Source of the DNA: Escherichia phage vB_EcoS_I14
Strand: one strand, 5' to 3'
Length of the DNA stretch: 64,000 nucleotides
Sequence record: PP892525.1
Shown here: positions 13,406 through 57,722 of the stretch, piece by piece
Layout of the letters: each line of letters begins with the position of its first letter
Numbering within the stretch: position 1 is the stretch's first letter
Translations under genes and position numbers: made by a program
The notes under the pieces: model-generated
What the model was told of the DNA's origin: nothing
Databases searched by the model: none
Seen by the model: only the letters and a program-made list of their open reading frames with translations

Positions 13406-13648
13406 TTACGATTCCTTGAGCAAAGAAGCAAGTTCAGCATAGACTTTATCTAACTCAAAGCCGATGCGAAGAGACACGTTAGTTTTCCGTTGTTTAAGTA
13501 ACCACTCGGATATGTTAGGGATGCCAGCTAATCTATGTGGTACCACCCTACATAGCTTTTCCGAAGTGTCGTAAACAGGAACTTTACGTTCTTTTACTGG
13601 GAACTTCCTTGTTTCCCATTTTTTATTCTTCACTGTCATTTCTAGCAC
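13406..13648 (-). CDS. hypothetical protein (80 aa)
   Basis: ORF. Confidence 0.45.
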   Translation of the reverse strand: MLEMTVKNKKWETRKFPVKERKVPVYDTSEKLCRVVPHRLAGIPNISEWLLKQRKTNVSLRIGFELDKVYAELASLLKES

Positions 13649-16490
13649 CTAGCTCTGCCATTGCTTCATCATGCATATGTTTCTCCTCATCAGTCATAAA
13701 CTTATACGGGATTGGCATACATTCGATTTTACAATAGGTTCTGTACCAGTCTACAATATTCTCCGTGTTCATATCCTTACCAATACCCATCATACCAAGA
13801 TACATTCTGGCATATTTTGGGTTAGCACTCTGACCTGTTTTAAGGAAGAAATCTTTCTTCTTACCTTTCAGAGCTTCTATGAATGGTTTGATAGTGACAT
13901 TTGAGCACTTCTTAATATCTTCCCAGAACATCTCGTGCATTTTATGGAAGAATGCCGCTCGATCATTCGGTTTATCCTTGATATACTGCTCAACATGCTC
14001 AACTGTTACATCTTTAATAGACTCAAGATGATAATAGCGAACAAGAAGTAGTTTAGCTTCATACGCATCTGCATGACGTGGAGCACAATAATCAGGAGTT
14101 GAATACAAAATAGCTTTGATTCGCTCTTCCGTATATTCTTTTCCTGCACCTTCGATAGTTCCCCAGCTTTCACTGAAAATATCAATAGTTGCACCCTGAT
14201 CAAGCAAGTAATAACGTAAAGTACTAGTATAGTTCCTAGATTCCAGCTCCCTACGACGTGCGTATAATTGCTGTGCTAACTCCAGCCAACCTTCATCAAT
14301 GTTATACTGTTCAGAACCTGCGGAGAATCCACTCGTAGATTTATCAATAAAATAATAAATGTTCTGGGCACCACGGTCGCGCCTGATTGCTTGGAAACGC
14401 ATGTTTGGCGCTTGGTTGCTAGTTCTAGTAATAACGAATACGTTATCAAAATAGTTGAAGTCAACACCACTCGTTACGGATGGACTACATAATAAGCAAT
14501 CAATTTGTTGGTCAATTAACTCATTAGTTGTGTAATCCAGAATACGTCGAATATCTACATCAGACGTAGAGTTTGAGTGGATTTCCTTAACTAACGCACC
14601 CGTATTACGACGCAACGCCATGCCCTTCTCATTCAGTTCATCCGGCCCACAGTCAGATACTAGGATAGATTTCTCCCCCATCTCTAGAGATGTCTGAAGC
14701 GCAACCCAAATACTGGATTCATCAGGGAACTCATAAGCATGAGCTTTTGACAGCATTTTTCGGTGATGATTATAAAATGCAACCGGTTTATCAAACTCAA
14801 TCAAGGAACCATATGCTTCAATTGTTTCTGCACTAATATCACCATCAGATAATATAATGATTTTTGCAGTTGCAAGAATATCCCGAAGAACCTGAATGCA
14901 TTCACGACGTTGTTTAACAACCGGGGCGAATAGTAGGTCATTCATTACAGCATCACATTCATCGATAAAGATTGCATCAATTTGACCAATAAAACTCTTG
15001 AACTTATGCAAAGAGTGAATAGTTGTGGACATACGGTCAATAGCACCACGCTTAAAATTAAGCATATCTACAGACTTATCATATTGTCCTGCACTAAATT
15101 TCTTAGCATTTGAAGACACCAGTGCTCTAGTATTGGTAATTGCTAAGAAATTACCTTTAATAACTCCCGAATCTAACCAACGCACAACCGCCGTGGTTTT
15201 ACCTGTACCTAGACTTGCTTTTACAAAAGTCATATAACCTTCTGGTGGCACAGTATTTAATTTCAAGAAGTTATCAGTTTCTAGGGAGTTAGTTTCTAGC
15301 TTTTTAAGTGGAATACCTTTTAAAACATCAGGTATATCGCGTTTAGAATTATTAACAAACGCTTTCAGAGCCTGTTTACGACCGTTATTAAAGTAATCTT
15401 GAATATTACGACTATTATCTTTAGTTGCAATATATTCTGATAAGGCTGGGCGGATTTCTTTTTCTAGCCATGCAAAATCAACACCATCCTCTAAAGCCCT
15501 GTGATAGAGTTTAGGAATAATACGTAGATACACTCCATCCTCAGCTTCTTCTAGTTCGCTGATAGTTTCTTCTACTTTATCAGAGGCAGCTTTTTTACCC
15601 TTAATTTGGTCGAGTAAAGAGTAAAACTCCTCCTTAAACTCACCTCTAGTTGTTTCATAGTCAACCAGATTATTTGGTAAATTTACTTTAGAACCTTTAA
15701 CAAATACCAGACGTGAAGCACCCTCCGCCTTAAACGGATCTACTATACCATCGGTAAATAACGGATCTGCAAAATAATGGAGCTGTACGGAAGAGTAATA
15801 AGCTAAGTCGGCAATATCAAAGCCATACTTTTGTCTACTACTTTCGTTGATAGATGTAAATAAGAATTTGATTTGACCCTGAGTTACTTTAACATTAGAT
15901 TCTAGTATTAAGTGCATTCGGATACCTGGTTTTAGCCCAGCCGAAGATGATGCATGAGCGATAAACCCTGCATCAAGAGGAAACATATCCTCACTAATAC
16001 TATTTAACATTCTAATAATATGTCGAGCCATACCAACAAGATCAAACTTGTTACAACCACCTGTATCTACAATACCATCCACGTCCATTGCAATTATATG
16101 ACTTGGGTTAGATACATTAAAGTTGCCCTTCTTACGTCGCACATTATTTTTAGGTGCAAGACATCGACCTCGTACCGCAACGATATGAGGGTCAGACGTT
16201 AAACGCCTCATAAGAGGGAGCATTTCTACTAGGGTTTGAGGATCAACTTCATCAATTACATCAAACTTGAAGGGCATTGAAGCTGGTTTACCTTCAGGAT
16301 GCTTTGAGGAAAATCTTTTAGCAAAAAGATAGTCTTCTGCTTTAACTTCTCGCCAAATGCCTGTGGCTAAGTCGCGATGAAATCCTGCATGACCTTGTAG
16401 GATTGAGAACACAACAATACTCCTGTGTTGGAAATGAAATAAGTTTTCTTTAGGACTATTCAGAAAGAATAGAACAACTGTTACTGTCAA
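13623..16490 (-). CDS. large P-loop ATPase, helicase/origin-binding-like; start uncertain
   Basis: Walker A SLGTGKTT, Walker B IFIDECDAV; first codon of longest ORF is TTG at 16490, first ATG is at 16277. Confidence 0.65.
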   Translation of the reverse strand: MTVTVVLFFLNSPKENLFHFQHRSIVVFSILQGHAGFHRDLATGIWREVKAEDYLFAKRFSSKHPEGKPASMPFKFDVIDEVDPQTLVEMLPLMRRLTSDPHIVAVRGRCLAPKNNVRRKKGNFNVSNPSHIIAMDVDGIVDTGGCNKFDLVGMARHIIRMLNSISEDMFPLDAGFIAHASSSAGLKPGIRMHLILESNVKVTQGQIKFLFTSINESSRQKYGFDIADLAYYSSVQLHYFADPLFTDGIVDPFKAEGASRLVFVKGSKVNLPNNLVDYETTRGEFKEEFYSLLDQIKGKKAASDKVEETISELEEAEDGVYLRIIPKLYHRALEDGVDFAWLEKEIRPALSEYIATKDNSRNIQDYFNNGRKQALKAFVNNSKRDIPDVLKGIPLKKLETNSLETDNFLKLNTVPPEGYMTFVKASLGTGKTTAVVRWLDSGVIKGNFLAITNTRALVSSNAKKFSAGQYDKSVDMLNFKRGAIDRMSTTIHSLHKFKSFIGQIDAIFIDECDAVMNDLLFAPVVKQRRECIQVLRDILATAKIIILSDGDISAETIEAYGSLIEFDKPVAFYNHHRKMLSKAHAYEFPDESSIWVALQTSLEMGEKSILVSDCGPDELNEKGMALRRNTGALVKEIHSNSTSDVDIRRILDYTTNELIDQQIDCLLCSPSVTSGVDFNYFDNVFVITRTSNQAPNMRFQAIRRDRGAQNIYYFIDKSTSGFSAGSEQYNIDEGWLELAQQLYARRRELESRNYTSTLRYYLLDQGATIDIFSESWGTIEGAGKEYTEERIKAILYSTPDYCAPRHADAYEAKLLLVRYYHLESIKDVTVEHVEQYIKDKPNDRAAFFHKMHEMFWEDIKKCSNVTIKPFIEALKGKKKDFFLKTGQSANPKYARMYLGMMGIGKDMNTENIVDWYRTYCKIECMPIPYKFMTDEEKHMHDEAMAELGARNDSEE

Positions 16491-16940: not shown

Positions 16941-17031
16941 GTAAAATTTTCCGGACGGTGCTATCATTGGTCTTGAGTACGGATAAAACCGAGCCAAAAT
17001 GACTCGGTAATCAGAGTTCAGCTAGTAAAAA

Positions 17032-17424
17032 TCATTCATCATTTAGGCCTGGAACATAGATCCCAACACGGTTTAATTGTTCTTTAGCTTCTTTGAGAAT
17101 ATCTGGAGTGTACTCCCAAATATCATCTTCCACCTGTAAAAGATGGGGCGAACAACCGTCATCCGGCACACGACATATGGCCAAACCACGTGGATGGAAC
17201 AAAGAGAAATTTAGGGCAACAATTAAACCCATAGCAGACAATTCATTCCAATCCAATTCCCATTCCCCCGCGTAGCCGGATAGGAAAACACCAACACAGG
17301 GATCATCTATTTGCTGCTCCGGAAAAGTGAGGGAGGCTTGTCTTACCCCCAACCAACGTTGTAGCAGCTTCTCCGCACGTTTCACCAAACTAGGGTCAAT
17401 CTGACGCCAATATACTTGTTCCAT
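17032..17424 (-). CDS. hypothetical protein, paralog of 17434..17862
   Basis: shared segments MGLIVALN, FHPRG, PGL. Confidence 0.55.
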   Translation of the reverse strand: MEQVYWRQIDPSLVKRAEKLLQRWLGVRQASLTFPEQQIDDPCVGVFLSGYAGEWELDWNELSAMGLIVALNFSLFHPRGLAICRVPDDGCSPHLLQVEDDIWEYTPDILKEAKEQLNRVGIYVPGLNDE

Positions 17425-17433
17425 TCTGCCTCC

Positions 17434-17862
17434 TTAAGCAGTTAAACCTGGGATCATATACCCGAAACGGCGAAGTTTTTGAATCCCCTCATTTACTTCT
17501 TCCGGTGAGTAAGACCAACCATAACGTTCATTAATCTGAAAACCAGGAGATTCACTAGTTTTATAGTTAACAACGAGGCGGTGCTTAGCAGGCATAAACA
17601 GCTTATAATTTAACGCAAAAACTAAGCCCATTTCGTCTAACTCTTTCCAGCCCACAATCTCTTCAAGACCATCCTCTACCTGAACAATTAAACCAATACA
17701 GGGAGCCTCATCAATATCATCTTTAAAAGCAAAGGAGATTTCGTTATTCTCACACCATATTTTCAAAGAGTTAATAGCCTCATTATACAGGCTAGCTGGG
17801 AGGGTACGCCAAAAGTTAACCAAAATTGGGTTAGCCTCTTTAGAGAAGACATTATTAAACAT
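17434..17862 (-). CDS. hypothetical protein, paralog of 17032..17424
   Basis: shared segments MGLVFALN, FMPAK, PGL; tandem arrangement. Confidence 0.55.
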   Translation of the reverse strand: MFNNVFSKEANPILVNFWRTLPASLYNEAINSLKIWCENNEISFAFKDDIDEAPCIGLIVQVEDGLEEIVGWKELDEMGLVFALNYKLFMPAKHRLVVNYKTSESPGFQINERYGWSYSPEEVNEGIQKLRRFGYMIPGLTA

Positions 17863-17864
17863 AT

Positions 17865-18371
17865 TTACACCTTAAATTGTTGTAGGGCTTTACACATTTC
17901 AAGATCTGGACTAAATTCTAACATATAGCTAACAGCTTTTAAATCTTGAAGATTTATTCCAGTCCTACCGTTGACTATAACCGTTGGATACTGATACATC
18001 ATAGCACCCGCATCATCAAGCACACACCAATGTTTGAGCTTATGCTTTTCAACGAAGCGAAGAACAGAATTGCCCCTAGATAATCCACCCCCAGTAAAAT
18101 CCGTTGTACCAAGAAAACGATCGATAAGGCCTAATCCGGTCATAATCTGAACGTTCTCCATCTCATTTCTGACAGAGAACCAAGATGATACTCCAACAAT
18201 CATTATCGGAGAAGGACGAATAAAGTCCTGAAAAGCCTTGAGAAGCGGTTTGAAAACCCAGTCACTTCCAAAGAAAATCTTTTCATTATCAGGTGCATGA
18301 TGGTGGGAGATGCTCGAATTGAGCACCCCATCAATATCTAGAAAAATAATTGGAGTATTACTTATTTCCAT
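17865..18371 (-). CDS. HAD-superfamily phosphatase (putative 5'-deoxynucleotidase)
   Basis: N-terminal motif FLDIDGVL (DxDG nucleophile). Confidence 0.65.
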   Translation of the reverse strand: MEISNTPIIFLDIDGVLNSSISHHHAPDNEKIFFGSDWVFKPLLKAFQDFIRPSPIMIVGVSSWFSVRNEMENVQIMTGLGLIDRFLGTTDFTGGGLSRGNSVLRFVEKHKLKHWCVLDDAGAMMYQYPTVIVNGRTGINLQDLKAVSYMLEFSPDLEMCKALQQFKV

Positions 18372-18567
18372 TTTTGTTCCTTTCTAAGAACGTATCATAC
18401 TCAACCGTATCAACATATATAACACCATAGTCATCGGATTTATAGTCCATTTCCCACAGCTCACAGCGATAGCACCAACTACCATCTGCCCATACAAATA
18501 TATCATCGGGATGTGTATAAACAGATTTAACTATGGACATATCTGTTTCCCTTGCTTCTCGACACAT
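18358..18567 (-). CDS. hypothetical protein (69 aa)
   Basis: ORF. Confidence 0.4.
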   Translation of the reverse strand: MCREARETDMSIVKSVYTHPDDIFVWADGSWCYRCELWEMDYKSDDYGVIYVDTVEYDTFLERNKNGNK

Positions 18568-19363
18568 AAGGTCTACCCTCTAAATGAGCTTCTACACGAG
18601 CAATAAAATCAGGGTCACTAAAAGCATCTACCGCACCTTTACTCCAGTAAGGGATACCGCGTTCTTCCAACTGGTACATCTCACTACGAGTCATACCTTG
18701 ATAGCCCGGTTCTGCTGCGAGGGCACTATCATAGTAGTTAACAACCATAAGTTTCGCAGCAGTCAAATTAAGAACAGGAAATAATTCCCAGTAGAAGTTA
18801 ATTACTTGGTTAGAGCAACCAACCACAATGATCATATCTTGACTGGTAATACCATCAAAAACATTATACATTTCTGCGTATGCAGGAGCATGTTCTCCAA
18901 AGAAGATTACATTAGGTTTAACCCATTTATAATCATCTGGATCAATAGAATTATACCCTACATCAATAATCCGTTTATTGCTACTATTGTAGCTATCAGC
19001 TACAACAACCTCTTTTAAATATCCGTGAATGTGCAGAATGTCACTATGTGGAACGCCAGCACGCTCAATAAGGTCATCAACGTTGGTAGTCAAGTTTACT
19101 ACTTGACCTGGATATTGTTTATACCATTCACCAATACGCAAATGTGCAAGATTGGGTTCAACAGTTTTTAGCTCTTCACGACGTTTGTTGTAAAACATAT
19201 GGGTTTTATGGTAAAAATTACCACGAAAGGCATGAATATTACATACTTCTTCTAGATCATAATCATCCCACAATGCTTTACCACTAGCAGTATCAGTACG
19301 AAAAGCTCGTACACCACTTTCAACACTCAAACCTGCACCGCTAATAATAATTACCCTACGCAT
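18527..19363 (-). CDS. Sir2-family NAD-dependent deacylase-like protein
   Basis: GAGLSVESGV..FR, TTNVDDLIERAG, HIHG, PNVIFFGE, IVVGCS match sirtuin motifs. Confidence 0.7.
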   Translation of the reverse strand: MRRVIIISGAGLSVESGVRAFRTDTASGKALWDDYDLEEVCNIHAFRGNFYHKTHMFYNKRREELKTVEPNLAHLRIGEWYKQYPGQVVNLTTNVDDLIERAGVPHSDILHIHGYLKEVVVADSYNSSNKRIIDVGYNSIDPDDYKWVKPNVIFFGEHAPAYAEMYNVFDGITSQDMIIVVGCSNQVINFYWELFPVLNLTAAKLMVVNYYDSALAAEPGYQGMTRSEMYQLEERGIPYWSKGAVDAFSDPDFIARVEAHLEGRPYVSRSKGNRYVHS

Positions 19364-19577
19364 TTTTCACCTGTTCTCTGAAGTTTTGCCCAATACTGTC
19401 TAATAGCTCAGCTAATTCTTTATTGCCTTTCTCCATTAAGGTATTAGCAATAACTTCTAGCATAGTAGCACAGGATTCAACACCATCCTTATAGCCAGTT
19501 TCCCAGTGCTGCATTAATGCGTTTTCCAAAGCGGAGTTTAAACCCTTATCTGGCAGCATCGGCTTCGAGAATGCCAT
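19356..19577 (-). CDS. hypothetical protein (73 aa)
   Basis: ORF. Confidence 0.4.
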   Translation of the reverse strand: MAFSKPMLPDKGLNSALENALMQHWETGYKDGVESCATMLEVIANTLMEKGNKELAELLDSIGQNFREQVKNA

Positions 19578-19749
19578 AAAGTTTCTCCTCTAGTTCCATA
19601 ACACGATTTTCATAAGAGGCACGCAACTTTTCAATTGCTAGCGCACGCACTGTAACCTCATTAGAATTAATAGCTAATTGGGCCAGATCTTCTGTTTCCA
19701 TACGTCCGTTGTAAATTAAGCGATATTTAAGATGTTTTACGTTTTTCAT
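19546..19749 (-). CDS. hypothetical protein (67 aa)
   Basis: ORF. Confidence 0.4.
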   Translation of the reverse strand: MKNVKHLKYRLIYNGRMETEDLAQLAINSNEVTVRALAIEKLRASYENRVMELEEKLYGILEADAAR

Positions 19750-19758
19750 TCTTGTTCC

Positions 19759-20040
19759 TTAGTTCTGTACTGTAAATTCATTCTTATCACAGTGAGCATA
19801 ATAATACCCGTACATACGATAAATTTTCACAGCCTTAGTAGACCCCTTCGATTCTTCATAATCGATCCAGAGCCACTTGTCTTTACCTACATAGTGTACC
19901 CGAAACTTCTTAACCTTCTTATCATTCCATGTTGCAACAACACGACGATAATCAAATCCACCCAACCAATCTAGAGCCTTACGTTCTTCACTAGGCTCTC
20001 CAAGATGGGAGACATCTACTTTAGGAAGCAACTCGCTCAT
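19759..20040 (-). CDS. hypothetical protein (93 aa)
   Basis: ORF directly downstream of the minus promoter at 20069. Confidence 0.45.
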   Translation of the reverse strand: MSELLPKVDVSHLGEPSEERKALDWLGGFDYRRVVATWNDKKVKKFRVHYVGKDKWLWIDYEESKGSTKAVKIYRMYGYYYAHCDKNEFTVQN

Positions 20041-20097: not shown

Positions 20098-20132
20098 ATA
20101 AAATAAAAGCCAGGTCGACTAGCAACCCGGCT
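20098..20132 (-). terminator. rho-independent terminator (minus) after nrdD
   Basis: hairpin AGCCGGGTTGCTAGTCGACCTGGCT followed on minus strand by TTTATTTTATTT. Confidence 0.6.
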
Positions 20133-32918: not shown

Positions 32919-33236
32919 ATGACTTTTCATATTTTGATTGATGATGTGCGTAATCTTCACGGAATGGACATTATCATTCGAACCCCAGAAGCCGCTGTAG
33001 AGTTTCTGAATAAAACTGATACCACCGGCCATTTCGTTTATATGGATAATGACTTGGCTGTAGATGGTATGGAAGGTTATCAAATTCTTCGTTTACTCTT
33101 AGAATTTGGGCAGAGACCAAAGAAAGTGGTACTAGTAACCTCGAACCCAGTAGCTAAGCAAAATATGCGTAATGATTTGCTTGACTTAGGGTATAAAGAA
33201 AATCCCAATCGTGTTGAATATGATTGGCAGGAGTAA
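32919..33236 (+). CDS. small protein resembling a CheY-like receiver (REC) domain
   Basis: ILIDDV acidic pair, FVYMDNDLAVDGMEGY candidate phospho-acceptor loop, VVLVTS, later Lys; 105 aa. Confidence 0.45.
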   Translation: MTFHILIDDVRNLHGMDIIIRTPEAAVEFLNKTDTTGHFVYMDNDLAVDGMEGYQILRLLLEFGQRPKKVVLVTSNPVAKQNMRNDLLDLGYKENPNRVEYDWQE

Positions 33237-55380: not shown

Positions 55381-56244
55381 ATGAAAAAAGAATTTAATGT
55401 ACATAAAACTCTAGTAGTGCCGGATGATGCCAACTTGTTTTTCGTTGGTGATATTCATGGATGCAATGATTTGCTAGAAGATGCGTTGAAATTAGCTGGG
55501 TATAATAGCAAAAAAGATTGCGTAGTATGTGTTGGTGACTTAATTGACCGAGGCACACAAAACTTACAAGTTTTAGCCAAATTCTTGTATAATCCACGTT
55601 TTATCAGTGTCCGTGGTAATCATGACCAATTTATGATTGCAGGAGATTGGGCTAATTGGATGTATAATGGTGGTATGTGGGCTATGAATGAGCTGGATGC
55701 AGATACAATTAAAAATATTGCCGAAGATATGGCTGAAAAAATGCCAGTATTCCTAACTGTCAGACATCGTGGTAATAAATTTGGTGTTGTTCACGGTGGT
55801 GTACCTTTTACGTACAAAGAATGTGGTAATGAGGTAGAAACCCCAGTATGGAATAATCTTATTGCACAAGTAGAAGCAGCTAAAGAAGACCCGCATGACC
55901 ATCCTGAATACCATATTGAGCCATATTTATGGGACCGAGATGTAATCCAAGAAATAGGCTTCCACTTGTCCAAAAAGGGTGAGGAACACCCATATTTCCA
56001 GCGTTATGCAGGATTTAAGGAAAAATACATGGTAGAAGTGCCAGAGGTTAAAGGGGTAGATTTCGTATTTCACGGACATACTGGGGTTCCTTACCCACTT
56101 CTTTATAAAAACCGTGTTTATCTTGATACTGGCGGTGTTTTCAACGGGCAGTTGACGGTTGCGCAAGTTAACGATGAAACAGGTAAAATCACCACATTTA
56201 CCACAGACAAAAATAATAGCTGCGGTGTACAGAGGGTTCTTTAA
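55381..56244 (+). CDS. serine/threonine protein phosphatase (calcineurin-like metallophosphatase)
   Basis: GDIHGC, GDLIDRG, GNHD motifs; ATG at 55381. Confidence 0.8.
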   Translation: MKKEFNVHKTLVVPDDANLFFVGDIHGCNDLLEDALKLAGYNSKKDCVVCVGDLIDRGTQNLQVLAKFLYNPRFISVRGNHDQFMIAGDWANWMYNGGMWAMNELDADTIKNIAEDMAEKMPVFLTVRHRGNKFGVVHGGVPFTYKECGNEVETPVWNNLIAQVEAAKEDPHDHPEYHIEPYLWDRDVIQEIGFHLSKKGEEHPYFQRYAGFKEKYMVEVPEVKGVDFVFHGHTGVPYPLLYKNRVYLDTGGVFNGQLTVAQVNDETGKITTFTTDKNNSCGVQRVL

Positions 56245-56543
56245 TGAATGATAGCACAAAAGATACACAAGAACAGCTAGAATCAATGCATATTGATGCC
56301 CTTCGTTGGAGGGCATTAGTTAATGCTTTCGTCAAAGGAGATACCGGAGTAATATATTCTGGAATAGCAGTCAATTTTTGTTTTAATTCTCCTGCTGAAA
56401 TAGAGATAGAAACAAGGCTTACTACCTACCTTAATGAGGTAGATCTTAAGGAAGGAGAGACTCCCGAGGAGTTTAAAACCAAAGTGTTAACCTCTTGGGC
56501 TAATAGTTTAATACGGAATAAGGAAAAGAATAATGAAAGTTAA
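56244..56543 (+). CDS. hypothetical protein (99 aa)
   Basis: ORF. Confidence 0.45.
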   Translation: MNDSTKDTQEQLESMHIDALRWRALVNAFVKGDTGVIYSGIAVNFCFNSPAEIEIETRLTTYLNEVDLKEGETPEEFKTKVLTSWANSLIRNKEKNNES

Positions 56544-57123
56544 ATTCTGGTCAGACTTGCACCTAGACCACCCTGGAGCGTTACGTTTCCGTCCGTGGTT
56601 TAAGAACATGAAAGAGCACGATGAGTATATTCTAGATACTTTGTCCAAGCATATTGGTAAACGAACAAAACTTATTTTGCTAGGAGATATTGCAGTAGGT
56701 CGTGAAGGTCTAGCTAAATTAAAGTCGGTTATCCACAATGTTCCTAATCAACTGATTATGGGTAATCATGATGCGGAGCGTCAAGGACTGAGTATTAGGG
56801 ACTTAGCGGAAGTTTATGATGATATTCAGGCTCTAGGTAAACAGACTGGAGGTGGCAAAAAGTTTTGGTTATCTCACTGCCCTTTGCACCCCAATGAACT
56901 TCGTGGCAAACTAAATATTCATGGACACGTACATACTACTTCTCTACGTGATCCACGTTATATCAATGTTTCATTTGAAATGAGTAAAACTCCAATTTCA
57001 TTAGAGGATATTGTGTCTGGTAAGTTTACTAGTTACGATAGAATAGTTAACTGTACTACCGGCGAGGTATTACAAATAGGGGAAGACGTAGCTGCTGTAT
57101 TGCGTGGTGATATAAATGTATAA
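56533..57123 (+). CDS. metallophosphoesterase (second calcineurin-like fold)
   Basis: DLHLD, GDIAVG, GNHD, HGHVH motifs. Confidence 0.7.
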   Translation: MKVKFWSDLHLDHPGALRFRPWFKNMKEHDEYILDTLSKHIGKRTKLILLGDIAVGREGLAKLKSVIHNVPNQLIMGNHDAERQGLSIRDLAEVYDDIQALGKQTGGGKKFWLSHCPLHPNELRGKLNIHGHVHTTSLRDPRYINVSFEMSKTPISLEDIVSGKFTSYDRIVNCTTGEVLQIGEDVAAVLRGDINV

Positions 57124-57231
57124 GTATATAGCTGAGGCTATTATTAAACGAATCATACAAGCGATAGCAATACTTATAATCATTTGTATTGCTATTGGCA
57201 CAGGACTAGGCATTTTAATTAAAAGTTTTAT

Positions 57232-57260
57232 TTGCTAAAATGCTTAAGTTTCTGTATAAT
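57232..57260 (+). promoter_or_regulatory. T5-type promoter: -35 TTGCTA, -10 TATAAT
   Basis: 17 bp spacer. Confidence 0.7.
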
Positions 57261-57290
57261 TACTTTATAAATTGATGAGAAGGAATCAAA

Positions 57291-57722
57291 ATGAACAAAG
57301 TTGATAAAGCTCTAGTTTTCGCAGCAGCAGATAAGTTTGAACAAGTTAAGGCAACTTTCCGAACCTTGTTCCAGTCTTACGTTCAGGATAAGTCTAATCC
57401 TATCTCTGAACGTTTGATGGTCTGGGAATGTCATGCTTGCAATGCCCTATTAATTGCGGATTATCGTAGCGATATGGATAAAGATCTGTGCGAAATTCTT
57501 ATCGCTGAGGAGGCAGAACGTTATCAGTTAATCTCTTTCCAAGATTTGGCGGAGCATATCATTCCTGATGATCTTTGGGATAAATACTACGGTGATCCTG
57601 AAGATGAGGGAATGACTCCAGAAGCCTGTATTGAGCTGATCTGCAAAGATCATCCTGAAATTGCAGAGAAATTTGAAAAAGTTTTTGCTTCTGAGTTCTC
57701 CGGCGTTGTTAACGATTGGTAA
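57291..57722 (+). CDS. hypothetical acidic protein (143 aa)
   Basis: RBS GAGAAGGAA. Confidence 0.5.
   Translation: MNKVDKALVFAAADKFEQVKATFRTLFQSYVQDKSNPISERLMVWECHACNALLIADYRSDMDKDLCEILIAEEAERYQLISFQDLAEHIIPDDLWDKYYGDPEDEGMTPEACIELICKDHPEIAEKFEKVFASEFSGVVNDW

What the first reader, a model, noticed from the sequence alone, without database searches (positions are those of the whole stretch)
17032..19363. Sir2-like protein clustered with a HAD phosphatase and a tandem paralog pair
The 278 aa ORF has the sirtuin NAD-binding and catalytic His motifs (GAGLS, TTNVDDLIERAG, HIHG). It sits with a HAD-type phosphatase (FLDIDGVL) and two paralogous unknown proteins (17032..17424, 17434..17862). Sir2 domains in phage-host conflict are best known as NAD-depleting defence effectors, so a phage-borne Sir2 next to a nucleotidase could be an NAD or ADP-ribose manipulating counter-defence module or a protein-modifying enzyme.
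Basis: partly seen in the sequence, partly recalled or inferred. Interest (0 to 1): 0.55.

Follow-up and report, generated by a model that had tools for sequence, protein, structure and literature searches.

The report
Phage T5 sirtuin–phosphatase early operon
This is the known but never tested early operon of phage T5 and its relatives, which encodes a zinc-less CobB-like sirtuin, a small HAD phosphatase and two acidic proteins of unknown function; the sirtuin–phosphatase pair has already been predicted on paper to be an NAD-dependent RNA-repair module.

Summary
The window comes from a T5-like phage (Tequintavirus), and the four ORFs are the homologues of T5 genes T5.102 (Sir2), T5.105 (HAD), T5.106 and T5.107, at 92–99% identity.

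- **Sirtuin.** It is a true sirtuin. Its closest relative by sequence and by predicted fold is E. coli CobB. All NAD-binding and catalytic residues are kept. The four zinc cysteines are missing, and the TQN motif reads TTN. It resembles no defence-type NADase Sir2.
- **HAD.** It is a capless HAD_SAK_2 phosphatase with all four catalytic motifs.
- **Paralogues.** Each is an internal duplication of DUF7415, an acidic, phage-only domain with no known fold relative.
- **Prior work.** The Sir2–HAD neighbourhood was published in 2022 as a predicted KptA-like RNA-repair system. A 2016 paper proposed host-protein deacetylation instead. Neither has been tested.
- **Fitness.** A CRISPRi screen of T5 scored genes T5.100–T5.106 as having no fitness effect.
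- **Added here.** HAD and Sir2 stay linked through gene-order changes in distant T5-like phages. The closest non-T5 HADs sit in the NARP1 NAD-rebuilding operon. T5-likes also encode an unlinked cREC enzyme, which is present and absent in the same phage groups as HAD. DUF7415 is a promiscuous accessory domain.

Verdict: real, already described, mechanism open, moderate interest.

The parts
20108..20132 (-). Terminator-like hairpin ending the upstream nrdD gene; marks the upstream boundary of the operon
   Evidence: 10-pair stem, 6 G-C pairs, followed by a T-run. T5 annotates a terminator and a promoter at the equivalent place.
19759..20040 (-). Small ORF (93 aa), first gene of the operon, function unknown
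   Evidence: phrog_7953, E 9e-66. No T5.100 homologue is present in the window, so this position varies between relatives.
19546..19749 (-). Small ORF (67 aa), homologue of T5.101, function unknown
   Evidence: phrog_5236; 89% identical to T5.101.
19356..19577 (-). Small ORF (73 aa), function unknown; overlaps the start of the Sir2 gene
   Evidence: phrog_5827, E 6e-31.
18527..19363 (-). Zinc-less CobB-like sirtuin (homologue of T5.102), 278 aa
   Evidence: Pfam SIR2, E 8e-25. Best solved relative is E. coli CobB 1s5p, E 8e-18. AF2 model pLDDT 89.1; Foldseek top hit CobB, target-normalised TM 0.85. Invariant catalytic and NAD-binding residues and no zinc cysteines across the clade. 95% identical to T5.102.
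18358..18567 (-). Small conserved ORF between Sir2 and HAD (homologue of T5.104; the likely start is at 18540, giving 60 aa)
   Evidence: phrog_5116, E 9e-30; 98% identical to T5.104.
17865..18371 (-). Capless HAD-superfamily phosphatase of the HAD_SAK_2 family (homologue of T5.105), 168 aa
   Evidence: Pfam HAD_SAK_2, E 7e-20. Invariant motif residues: D12/D14 (motif I), S62/S63 (II), R99 (III), D119/D120 (IV). 99% identical to T5.105.
17434..17862 (-). DUF7415 double-domain protein, paralogue A (homologue of T5.106), 142 aa, acidic
   Evidence: Pfam DUF7415, two stretches, E 9e-35. 31% identical to paralogue B. pI about 4.5.
17032..17424 (-). DUF7415 double-domain protein, paralogue B (homologue of T5.107), 130 aa, acidic
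16988..17008 (-). Terminator-like hairpin (ACCGAGTC-ATTTT-GGCTCGGT followed by TTTAT) that closes the operon
   Evidence: Read from the sequence. Corresponds to the rho-independent terminator annotated after T5.107. The simple consensus scan did not report it.
32919..33233 (+). Unlinked cREC (cyclic-phosphate-processing receiver) protein, homologue of T5.084; an inferred functional partner, about 13.5 kb away
   Evidence: 96% identical to T5.084, which matches Pfam cREC_REC at E 3.4e-15. Its distribution by host genus among phage records matches that of the HAD. Both are absent from a Klebsiella T5-like genome.

Best explanation
The block is one early, dispensable accessory operon shared by T5-like phages.

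**Proposed mechanism (inferred, not shown).**
- The core enzyme is a sirtuin that binds NAD+, releases nicotinamide and transfers ADP-ribose to an oxygen nucleophile.
- The acceptor is most likely a phosphate rather than an acyl-lysine: a 2'-phosphate left at a broken or re-joined RNA. That would make the sirtuin a functional analogue of the RNA 2'-phosphotransferase KptA/Tpt1.
- Such a reaction releases ADP-ribose 1'',2''-cyclic phosphate.
- The unlinked cREC enzyme would open the cyclic phosphate. The capless HAD_SAK_2 phosphatase would then remove the remaining phosphate, either from ADP-ribose 1''-phosphate or from an RNA end.
- The whole would counter host RNA-cleaving defences and tidy up or recycle the NAD-derived by-products.

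**The two DUF7415 proteins** are acidic accessory proteins of unknown role that share the operon. They are probably not enzymes.

**Shown here:** the domain identities, intact catalytic residues, operon structure, conserved linkage and dispensability.
**Inferred:** the substrate of every enzyme and the biological role.
For: **The sirtuin looks catalytically competent.**
- The motifs GAGxS...SG..FR, PN..H, T-N-V-D, H-G, FGE, GxS and N209 are invariant or nearly so across 67 phage homologues.
- The fold is predicted with confidence (pLDDT 89).

**The same phage sirtuin clade (52-61% identical) sits among RNA-end-processing genes in unrelated myoviruses.**
- In rV5-like LL12 and Mydovirus KPP-1 the neighbours are a metallophosphoesterase, an AAA_33 kinase, a T4-type RNA ligase and cREC.
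- In jumbo phage CBB the neighbours are a 2H-like 'RNA ligase' and a Nudix-cREC fusion.
- These observations reproduce the neighbourhoods of Iyer et al. 2022 (PMC9503650). That paper names the T5-like phage SP15, whose Sir2 is 97% identical to this one.

**HAD-Sir2 linkage survives rearrangement in distant T5-like contigs.**
- L012: nrdD-HAD-81 aa-Sir2.
- L015: nrdD-79 aa-HAD-117 aa-108 aa-Sir2.
- L078 and L080: PhoH | HAD-117/119 aa-Sir2.

**The other partner of this HAD group is also an NAD/ADP-ribose pathway.** In Serratia phage ChuuTotoro and in contigs L010 and L011, the HAD (36-43% identical) lies directly upstream of the NARP1 genes Adps and Namat. NARP1 rebuilds NAD+ from ADP-ribose (bioRxiv 10.1101/2024.02.11.579819). 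A Macro-domain ADPR-1''-phosphate phosphatase in NARP1 operons is an experimental precedent (bioRxiv 10.64898/2026.01.28.702374).

**HAD and cREC vary together.**
- T5 and this window encode cREC.
- HAD and cREC have nearly the same counts by host genus among phage records: Salmonella 271 and 269, Escherichia 129 and 129, Klebsiella 3 and 3.
- Both are missing from a Klebsiella T5-like genome that keeps Sir2.

**The accessory enzymes fit the chemistry (established knowledge).**
- A deacylation yields no phosphomonoester or cyclic phosphate. A Tpt1-type reaction yields ADP-ribose cyclic phosphate, which yeast clears with a cyclic phosphodiesterase (Cpd1) and then a phosphatase (Poa1).
- Those are the two activities that cREC and HAD would supply.

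**An accessory, conditional role fits the fitness data.** T5.100-T5.106 all score 'Not Fit' in the T5 CRISPRi-ART screen (PMC11879866, supplement file 16).
Against: - No sirtuin has been shown to act on RNA or on a phosphate acceptor.
- T5 (first 75 kb) and the window contain no homologue of the RNA ligase, polynucleotide kinase, 2H, Nudix, Adps or Namat found in the other neighbourhoods (tblastn, E < 1). A self-contained repair pathway is therefore absent here.
- The sirtuin clade is acidic (median pI 5.2, net charge -12), which is unusual for an RNA-binding enzyme.
- Its closest relatives by sequence and by structure are genuine protein deacylases. It keeps the Tyr/Arg pair (Y58, R61) that sets acyl specificity in CobB and SIRT5.
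- Klebsiella T5-like phages keep Sir2 without HAD or cREC, so the sirtuin does not depend on them.
- The HAD-NARP1 link comes from a single lineage: three isolates and two metagenomic contigs.
Confidence: 0.38

Rival explanations
1. The sirtuin is an ordinary NAD-dependent protein lysine deacylase, working as a phage copy of host CobB. It would remodel acetylation or succinylation of host or phage proteins during early infection, for example by activating acetyl-CoA synthetase. On this reading the HAD and DUF7415 genes are neighbours with separate jobs.
For: - The best sequence match is E. coli CobB (E 8e-18). NCBIfam deacylase models match at E 5e-29.
- The best structural matches are CobB-peptide complexes (target-normalised TM 0.85), followed by SIRT5 and Sir2Af1.
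- The catalytic His113, Asn94, Asp96, the FGE loop and the CobB/SIRT5 Tyr-x-x-Arg pair are conserved.
- The acidic pI resembles that of CobB.
- Sir2 persists alone, without HAD or cREC, in Klebsiella T5-like phages.
- This role was proposed for the same phage clade in PMC5107563.
Against: - All four zinc-ribbon cysteines are missing throughout the clade, and the TQN motif is changed to TTN or TAN.
- Scores are far below the curated CobB equivalog cut-offs: 91-101 bits against 243-320.
- No acyltransferase or other acylation-related gene appeared in the neighbourhoods examined. The recurring neighbours are phosphoesterases, an RNA ligase and NAD-rebuilding enzymes.
- A deacylation gives the linked HAD and the co-varying cREC nothing to act on.
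Confidence: 0.3
2. The module acts on small NAD-derived molecules rather than on macromolecules. Sir2 and HAD (with cREC) would convert or destroy ADP-ribose-based metabolites or immune signals, or protect the NAD+ supply that T5's NAD-dependent DNA ligase needs. The purpose would be to counter NAD-targeting host defences.
For: - The closest non-T5 HAD homologues sit in the NARP1 NAD+ reconstitution operon.
- Phosphatases and other ADP-ribose-processing enzymes are known add-ons to NARP1 (abstract of PMC13232231).
- The sirtuin clade lies within a few kilobases of NARP1 or NARP2 genes in KPP-1 and CBB.
- T5 and its Klebsiella relative use an NAD-dependent DNA ligase.
Against: - T5-likes have no Adps, Namat or NadV to rebuild NAD+.
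- A sirtuin consumes NAD+ rather than saving it.
- No sirtuin is known to degrade cyclic ADP-ribose signals.
- The HAD-NARP1 association comes from one lineage.
- More distant HAD_SAK_2 relatives sit next to an RNA ligase and a metallophosphoesterase about as often as next to NAD genes.
Confidence: 0.17
3. The sirtuin is an NAD+ glycohydrolase that the phage uses to drain host NAD+, as a host shut-off function. It would work like the Sir2 effectors of bacterial defence systems.
For: - Sir2 domains can act as NADases.
- The catalytic residues needed for NAD+ cleavage are present.
Against: - No match to any PADLOC defence Sir2 model.
- No defence-type Sir2 among the 50 best structural matches.
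- T5 replication depends on its own NAD-dependent DNA ligase.
- Related phages pair this sirtuin with NAD+-rebuilding genes.
- Knock-down has no fitness effect.
Confidence: 0.05

Closest known systems
Phage T5 genes T5.102-T5.107, and the 'sirtuin + Swiss-army-knife HAD' neighbourhood of Iyer, Burroughs, Anantharaman and Aravind 2022 (PMC9503650), typified by Escherichia phage SP15
   Same: - Same genes: 92-99% protein identity to T5.102, T5.104, T5.105, T5.106 and T5.107, and 97% to the SP15 Sir2.
- Same order, and the same position between nrdD and the origin-binding helicase.
   Different: - The small ORFs differ: T5.100 and T5.103 are absent, and two other small ORFs are present.
- The text of the 2022 paper read here does not mention the DUF7415 pair, the unlinked cREC of T5-likes or the HAD-NARP1 link. 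Its figures were not available.
E. coli CobB and human SIRT5 (class III sirtuins, protein lysine deacylases)
   Same: - Same fold (Foldseek E 3e-17, target-normalised TM 0.85).
- Same NAD-binding loop, catalytic His, Asn and Asp, FGE loop and Tyr-x-x-Arg pair.
   Different: - About 25% identity.
- No zinc-binding cysteines.
- TQN is replaced by TTN.
- A C-terminal extension of about 60 residues.
- Below the NCBIfam equivalog cut-offs.
- Encoded only in phage-like genomes among the best 120 relatives.
KptA/Tpt1 RNA 2'-phosphotransferase with the yeast by-product pathway Cpd1 and Poa1
   Same: Proposed to work alike (inference). The steps would be NAD+-dependent ADP-ribosyl transfer to a 2'-phosphate, then a cyclic phosphodiesterase, then a phosphatase acting on ADP-ribose phosphate. 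A candidate for each step is encoded here: Sir2, cREC and HAD.
   Different: - Unrelated folds: sirtuin against ART, cREC against 2H, HAD against Macro.
- No activity has been shown.
- T5-likes have no RNA ligase or kinase.
NARP1-AP (Adps, Namat and the Macro-domain ADPR-1''-phosphate phosphatase Adpp; Osterman et al. 2026 preprint)
   Same: A phosphatase gene attached to the Adps-Namat operon is seen for HAD_SAK_2 homologues of this protein in ChuuTotoro-like phages.
   Different: - The characterised phosphatase is a Macro domain, not a HAD. HAD is not mentioned in that paper.
- T5-likes have no Adps or Namat.
T4 polynucleotide kinase-phosphatase (Pnkp), phosphatase domain
   Same: From established knowledge: a HAD-superfamily DxDxT phosphatase that acts on polynucleotide ends and is used by a phage to heal cleaved tRNA.
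   Different: - Here the phosphatase is a stand-alone 168-aa protein with no kinase domain.
- It belongs to a different HAD family (HAD_SAK_2).
- No phmmer match to any solved structure at E <= 1.

Membership tests
Sirtuin / SIR2 family (Pfam PF02146) | Profile match above the curated threshold | tested here: met
   88.2 bits against a cut-off of 24, E 8e-25, covering profile positions 1-178 of 180.
Sirtuin / SIR2 family (Pfam PF02146) | NAD-binding GAGxS...SGIxxFR loop, catalytic His (HG), and Asn/Asp of the (T)QN(I/V)D motif | tested here: met
   G9-A10-G11, S13, S16-G17, F21-R22, N94, D96 and H113-G114 align with CobB and are invariant in 67 phage homologues. The Gln before the Asn is replaced by Thr (or Ala).
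Sirtuin / SIR2 family (Pfam PF02146) | Four-cysteine zinc ribbon in the small domain | tested here: not met
   No cysteine at the aligned positions in any clade member. The segment is still predicted as beta strands 114-122, 131-134 and 147-152 with high confidence. The loss was already noted for phage homologues in PMC5107563.
CobB / class III protein deacylase (NCBIfam equivalogs NF040867, NF001755 and related) | Score above the curated equivalog cut-off | tested here: not met
   79-101 bits against cut-offs of 243-320. The protein is related to CobB but is not a CobB equivalog.
CobB / class III protein deacylase | Tyr-x-x-Arg pair that recognises acidic acyl groups | tested here: met
   Y58 and R61 align with the FYNARR segment of CobB. 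Y58 is invariant. R61 is invariant in the 67-sequence phage set A3 and is replaced by Met only in jumbo phage CBB in alignment A2.
CobB / class III protein deacylase | Lysine deacylase activity | not testable with these tools
   Needs an enzyme assay.
Defence-type NADase Sir2 (ThsA, DSR, SIR2-HerA and similar) | Match to defence Sir2 profiles or structures | tested here: not met
   No PADLOC hit. None of these among the 50 best Foldseek PDB matches.
HAD_SAK_2 (Pfam PF18143), HAD superfamily phosphatase | Profile match above threshold, and the four HAD catalytic motifs | tested here: met
   72.2 bits against a cut-off of 27.5. Invariant D12-x-D14, S62-S63, R99 and D119-D120 in 13 homologues down to 37% identity. 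No cap domain fits into 168 residues.
Iyer et al. 2022 phage sirtuin RNA-repair neighbourhood, type 3 (sirtuin + SAK-HAD) | A sirtuin of the phage clade adjacent to a SAK-type HAD in a conserved neighbourhood | tested here: met
   Adjacent here and in T5-like relatives. The linkage is kept with a different gene order in L012, L015, L078 and L080. The named prototype SP15 is 97% identical.
Iyer et al. 2022 phage sirtuin RNA-repair neighbourhood | RNA ligase and 5' kinase available to complete a repair | tested here: not met
   No homologue of the neighbourhood's Rnl1-type ligase or AAA_33 kinase in the window or in T5 positions 1-75,000 (tblastn, E < 1). T5's late region was not scanned.
Iyer et al. 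2022 phage sirtuin RNA-repair neighbourhood | KptA-like removal of an RNA 2'-phosphate by the sirtuin | not testable with these tools
   A prediction only. The paper searches run here returned no experimental study of it.
DUF7415 (Pfam PF24187) | Profile match above threshold | tested here: met
   119 and 106 bits against a cut-off of 27, two stretches in each protein.

The most novel reading that the evidence does not exclude
The phage sirtuin clade would be the first sirtuin that works on a phosphate acceptor, namely an RNA 2'-phosphate. cREC and the HAD_SAK_2 phosphatase would then convert the released ADP-ribose cyclic phosphate to ADP-ribose. In ChuuTotoro-like phages, where the same HAD sits in the NARP1 operon, that ADP-ribose would be fed straight back into NAD+. 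Together this would be a closed NAD+ cycle built by phages around RNA repair. A separate possibility is that the acidic DUF7415 proteins are a widespread, uncharacterised family of phage anti-defence proteins.
Probability: 0.2. Interest if true: 0.75.

Novelty: already known. Interest (0 to 1): 0.35.

Why it matters
Sirtuins are among the most studied NAD-consuming enzymes, yet the purpose of the zinc-less clade carried by more than a thousand sequenced phage records is unknown. That clade spans T5-like, rV5-like and KVP40-like phages and several jumbo phages.

- If it acts on RNA phosphates, the known chemistry of sirtuins would widen, and a new route would be added by which phages undo tRNA-cleaving immunity.
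- If it is a deacylase, it would be a clear case of a phage rewriting host protein acylation.

T5 is a tractable model phage and the genes are dispensable, so the deletions, enzyme assays and defence-system panels needed to decide are straightforward.

As a scan finding it is not new. The genes have been annotated since the T5 genome was published, and the Sir2–HAD link was published in 2022.

Tried and rejected
- **A DUF7415-HAD association outside T5-likes.** T5's own annotation notes hinted at one in phage Aeh1. None was found within 10 kb in 46 distant HAD loci.
- **Sir2 next to distant HAD_SAK_2 relatives (22-33% identical).** None found. Sir2 is adjacent only in T5-like phages.
- **RNA ligase, kinase, 2H, Nudix, Adps, Namat or NadV in the window and in T5 positions 1-75,000.** None found. 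The same search turned up cREC.
- **cREC, HAD or a metallophosphoesterase in a Klebsiella T5-like genome.** None found.
- **Domain fusions of DUF7415.** Fusions exist to a dATP/dGTP pyrophosphohydrolase domain and to thymidylate kinase. They suggest a link to nucleotide metabolism, but there are too few of them to assign a function.
- **Locus search with a 17-sequence DUF7415 alignment.** It failed because no stretch was conserved enough. It worked with 9 sequences.
- **Experimental work on the T5 sirtuin.** The paper searches run here found none. One search was rejected for syntax.
- **NADase or defence-like reading.** Rejected on the PADLOC and fold evidence.
- **'Nucleotidase' reading of the HAD.** Not rejected outright, but nothing supports it. 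T5's known deoxynucleotidase is a different gene, dmp (T5.001).


Full report
**What the window is**

The region is 97% identical at the DNA level to Salmonella phage HMD-7. It has several hundred relatives, all T5-like phages of the family Demerecviridae. In phage T5 itself the same block is T5.100-T5.107. There it lies between the anaerobic ribonucleotide reductase gene nrdD and the origin-binding helicase, with an annotated promoter in front and a terminator behind. The window's proteins are 95% (Sir2, T5.102), 98% (T5.104), 99% (HAD, T5.105), 92% (T5.106) and 95% (T5.107) identical to the T5 proteins.

**Checking the observation**

- All four ORFs and the quoted motifs are present.
- Pfam assigns SIR2 (E 8e-25), HAD_SAK_2 (E 7e-20) and DUF7415 twice (E 9e-35 and 1e-30).
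- The two DUF7415 proteins are 31% identical (E 9e-20). Each contains two copies of the 53-residue domain, so the operon carries four copies in all.
- A small conserved ORF lies between Sir2 and HAD, and three more lie upstream.
- The unit is bounded by terminator-like hairpins at 20132-20108 and 17008-16988.

**The sirtuin**

- Its best solved relative is E. coli CobB (E 8e-18).
- A confident model (pLDDT 89.1, pTM 0.88) matches CobB best (Foldseek E 3e-17, target-normalised TM 0.85), followed by Sir2Af1 and SIRT5. No defence-type NADase Sir2 appears among the first 50 matches.
- No PADLOC defence model matches.
- Across 67 phage homologues the NAD-binding loop, Asn94, Asp96, His113, the FGE loop and the Tyr58/Arg61 pair of CobB and SIRT5 are invariant.
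- Two features set the clade apart. None of the four zinc cysteines is present, and the Gln of the TQN motif is Thr or Ala.
- NCBIfam CobB models match, but far below their equivalog cut-offs.
- The best 120 relatives in the large protein collection are 50-97% identical. Those that lie on long contigs sit on phage-sized ones, about 110-150 kb.
- The clade spans T5-like, rV5-like, Mydovirus, Phapecoctavirus and KVP40-like phages and several jumbo phages: 1007 phage records in all.

**The HAD**

Thirteen homologues, down to 37% identity, keep the four HAD motifs: DxD, SS, R and DD. At 168 residues there is no room for a cap domain. From general knowledge of the superfamily, capless HADs tend to take large substrates. 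No solved structure matches by sequence.

**DUF7415**

- An exhaustive profile search of 1.84 billion representative proteins found only 156 clusters. Most match only the C-terminal half of the profile, either as single-domain proteins of 60-110 residues or as part of larger proteins.
- A few are fused to a dATP/dGTP pyrophosphohydrolase domain or to thymidylate kinase.
- In T4-like Klebsiella phages a single-domain copy sits between nrdD and nrdG. In RB43 one sits near a Nudix gene.
- In temperate phage contigs of roughly 15-55 kb (most 32-47 kb), the neighbours are mostly the replication protein GPA and DNA methyltransferases: 6 and 11 of 60 neighbours.
- The family is acidic, with a median pI of 4.5-4.9.
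- I read DUF7415 as a promiscuous accessory domain of early regions, not as a dedicated partner of Sir2.

**What is already published**

- Iyer et al. 2022 (PMC9503650) describe a distinct phage sirtuin clade in three kinds of neighbourhood. [quoted passage not shown] They propose that the sirtuin removes RNA 2'-phosphates as KptA does.
- Skliros et al. 2016 (PMC5107563) had already noted the missing zinc site in phage Sir2/CobB, including T5's. They proposed deacetylation of host enzymes such as acetyl-CoA synthetase.
- The paper searches run here returned no experimental test of either idea.
- In the genome-wide CRISPRi-ART screen of T5, T5.100-T5.106 are all 'Not Fit', meaning dispensable on the laboratory host (PMC11879866, supplement file 16).

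**What the comparisons here add**

1. I reproduced the myovirus neighbourhoods.
   - In LL12 and KPP-1 the sirtuin follows a T4-type RNA ligase and cREC, with a kinase and a metallophosphoesterase beside them.
   - In CBB it lies between a 2H-like gene and a Nudix-cREC fusion, just downstream of NAD salvage genes.
2. HAD-Sir2 linkage is kept through rearrangements in three further T5-like sublineages (L012, L015, L078/L080). In these the order is HAD first, other small genes intervene, and nrdD or DUF7415 may be missing.
3. Klebsiella T5-like phages show the opposite pattern. They have Sir2 followed by two DUF7415 genes and no HAD. Sir2 is therefore the constant element.
4. The only other context found for HADs of similar closeness (36-43% identical) is directly upstream of the Adps-Namat pair in Serratia phage ChuuTotoro and in two metagenomic contigs.
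   - That pair is the NARP1 NAD+ reconstitution pathway (bioRxiv 10.1101/2024.02.11.579819).
   - NARP1 operons are known to recruit a Macro-domain ADPR-1''-phosphate phosphatase (bioRxiv 10.64898/2026.01.28.702374). HAD is not mentioned there.
   - This is a single lineage, so it carries limited weight.
5. T5 and the window encode a cREC protein 13-14 kb away: T5.084, window 32919-33233.
   - Its counts by host genus among phage records are almost identical to those of the HAD.
   - Both are absent from a Klebsiella T5-like genome scanned over 110 kb.
   - The 50 Vibrio phage records with cREC equal the 50 Vibrio records with Sir2.
6. T5-likes lack the RNA ligase, kinase, 2H, Nudix and NAD-rebuilding genes of the other neighbourhoods.

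**Weighing the explanations**

The sirtuin's nearest relatives are deacylases, it is acidic, and it can occur without HAD or cREC. All of this keeps the deacylase reading alive (0.30).

Several points count against that reading:
- The missing zinc site.
- The altered TQN motif.
- The absence of any acylation-related neighbour.
- The linked and co-varying partners are two phosphoesterases, for which a deacylation offers no substrate.

A transfer of ADP-ribose to a phosphate, as in KptA/Tpt1, would release ADP-ribose cyclic phosphate. Yeast clears that compound with a cyclic phosphodiesterase and then a phosphatase. The chemistry of sirtuins and of Tpt1 is closely parallel: an oxygen nucleophile attacks C1'', then the 2''-hydroxyl attacks. 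Both points come from established enzymology and are inference here.

I therefore rank a phosphate-directed, RNA-repair-type role with by-product clean-up first, but only at 0.38. The main reason for caution is that T5-likes lack a ligase and a kinase.

A purely small-molecule role in the NAD/ADP-ribose economy is third (0.17). A host-draining NADase is unlikely (0.05).

**Verdict**

The finding is real and correctly read at the domain level. It concerns genes long annotated in a model phage, and a neighbourhood already described in the literature. Its mechanism is still open and easy to test, which gives it moderate interest.

Noticed in passing
window 32919-33233 (+): A 105-aa cREC (cyclic-phosphate-processing receiver domain) protein, 96% identical to T5.084. 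It is annotated 'hypothetical' in T5 and in most relatives. Its counts by host genus among phage records mirror those of the HAD gene.
   Followed up: yes
window 17032-18371, and GenBank records of relatives: Annotation errors are being propagated. The HAD (T5.105) is labelled 'Sir2 (NAD-dependent deacetylase)' in T5 RefSeq and in many relatives, apparently through phrog_18062, a 92-position profile that covers only the C-terminal half of the HAD. The DUF7415 proteins are labelled 'tail tube protein' in several records.
   Followed up: partly
L009 4980-8196; L010 8001-11519; L011 8001-11569: In Serratia phage ChuuTotoro and two metagenomic relatives, a HAD_SAK_2 gene lies directly upstream of the NARP1 genes (Adps-like and Namat-like). 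This suggests a HAD-type counterpart of the Macro-domain phosphatase of NARP1-AP. Neither NARP1 paper read here mentions it.
   Followed up: partly
L004 4995-5213 (Klebsiella phage JD18); L005 4992-5249 (RB43): Single-domain DUF7415 genes sit between nrdD and nrdG in T4-like Klebsiella phages, and near Nudix and 2H-like genes in RB43. In the window the DUF7415 pair is also downstream of nrdD. It is unclear whether the nrdD association is functional or only reflects a shared early region.
   Followed up: partly
L083-L162 (temperate phage contigs, most 32-47 kb): In temperate phages, including P2-like ones, the immediate neighbours of DUF7415 genes are often DNA methyltransferases (11 of 60 neighbours) and the replication protein GPA (6 of 60). 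The family is strongly acidic. Together these hint at an anti-restriction or DNA-mimic role.
   Followed up: partly
L078 2894-3247; L080 2656-3015; L015 5712-6065: A conserved family of 117-119-aa proteins with no Pfam match lies between HAD and Sir2 in distant T5-like contigs (33-44% identical to one another). It occupies the position that a small ORF fills in T5.
   Followed up: no
window 19356-20040 compared with T5 55786-57428: The small ORFs of the operon vary between close relatives. The window lacks homologues of T5.100 and T5.103 and instead carries ORFs of phrog_7953 and phrog_5827. Some relatives have an HNH homing endonuclease inserted in this block (ECOP18).
   Followed up: partly
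window 13623-16490 (-): The ORF listing gives a 955-aa reading frame starting at TTG for the origin-binding helicase. Relatives annotate about 929 aa (2787-2790 nt), so the true start is probably an internal codon downstream of the promoter-like TTGCAG-N17-TATAAT at about 16945-16917.
   Followed up: no
window, about 22000: GC skew changes sign near 22 kb, matching the switch from minus-strand early genes (nrdD and the Sir2 operon) to plus-strand genes (phoH onwards).
   Followed up: no
L164 49312-50000 (Klebsiella phage vB_Kpn_K7_rec19): A gene annotated 'polynucleotide kinase' lies just after the 'DNA transfer protein' (A1-like) gene, a position comparable to that of dmp beside A1 in T5. It may be a HAD-type deoxynucleotidase mislabelled by similarity to the Pnkp phosphatase domain.
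   Followed up: no
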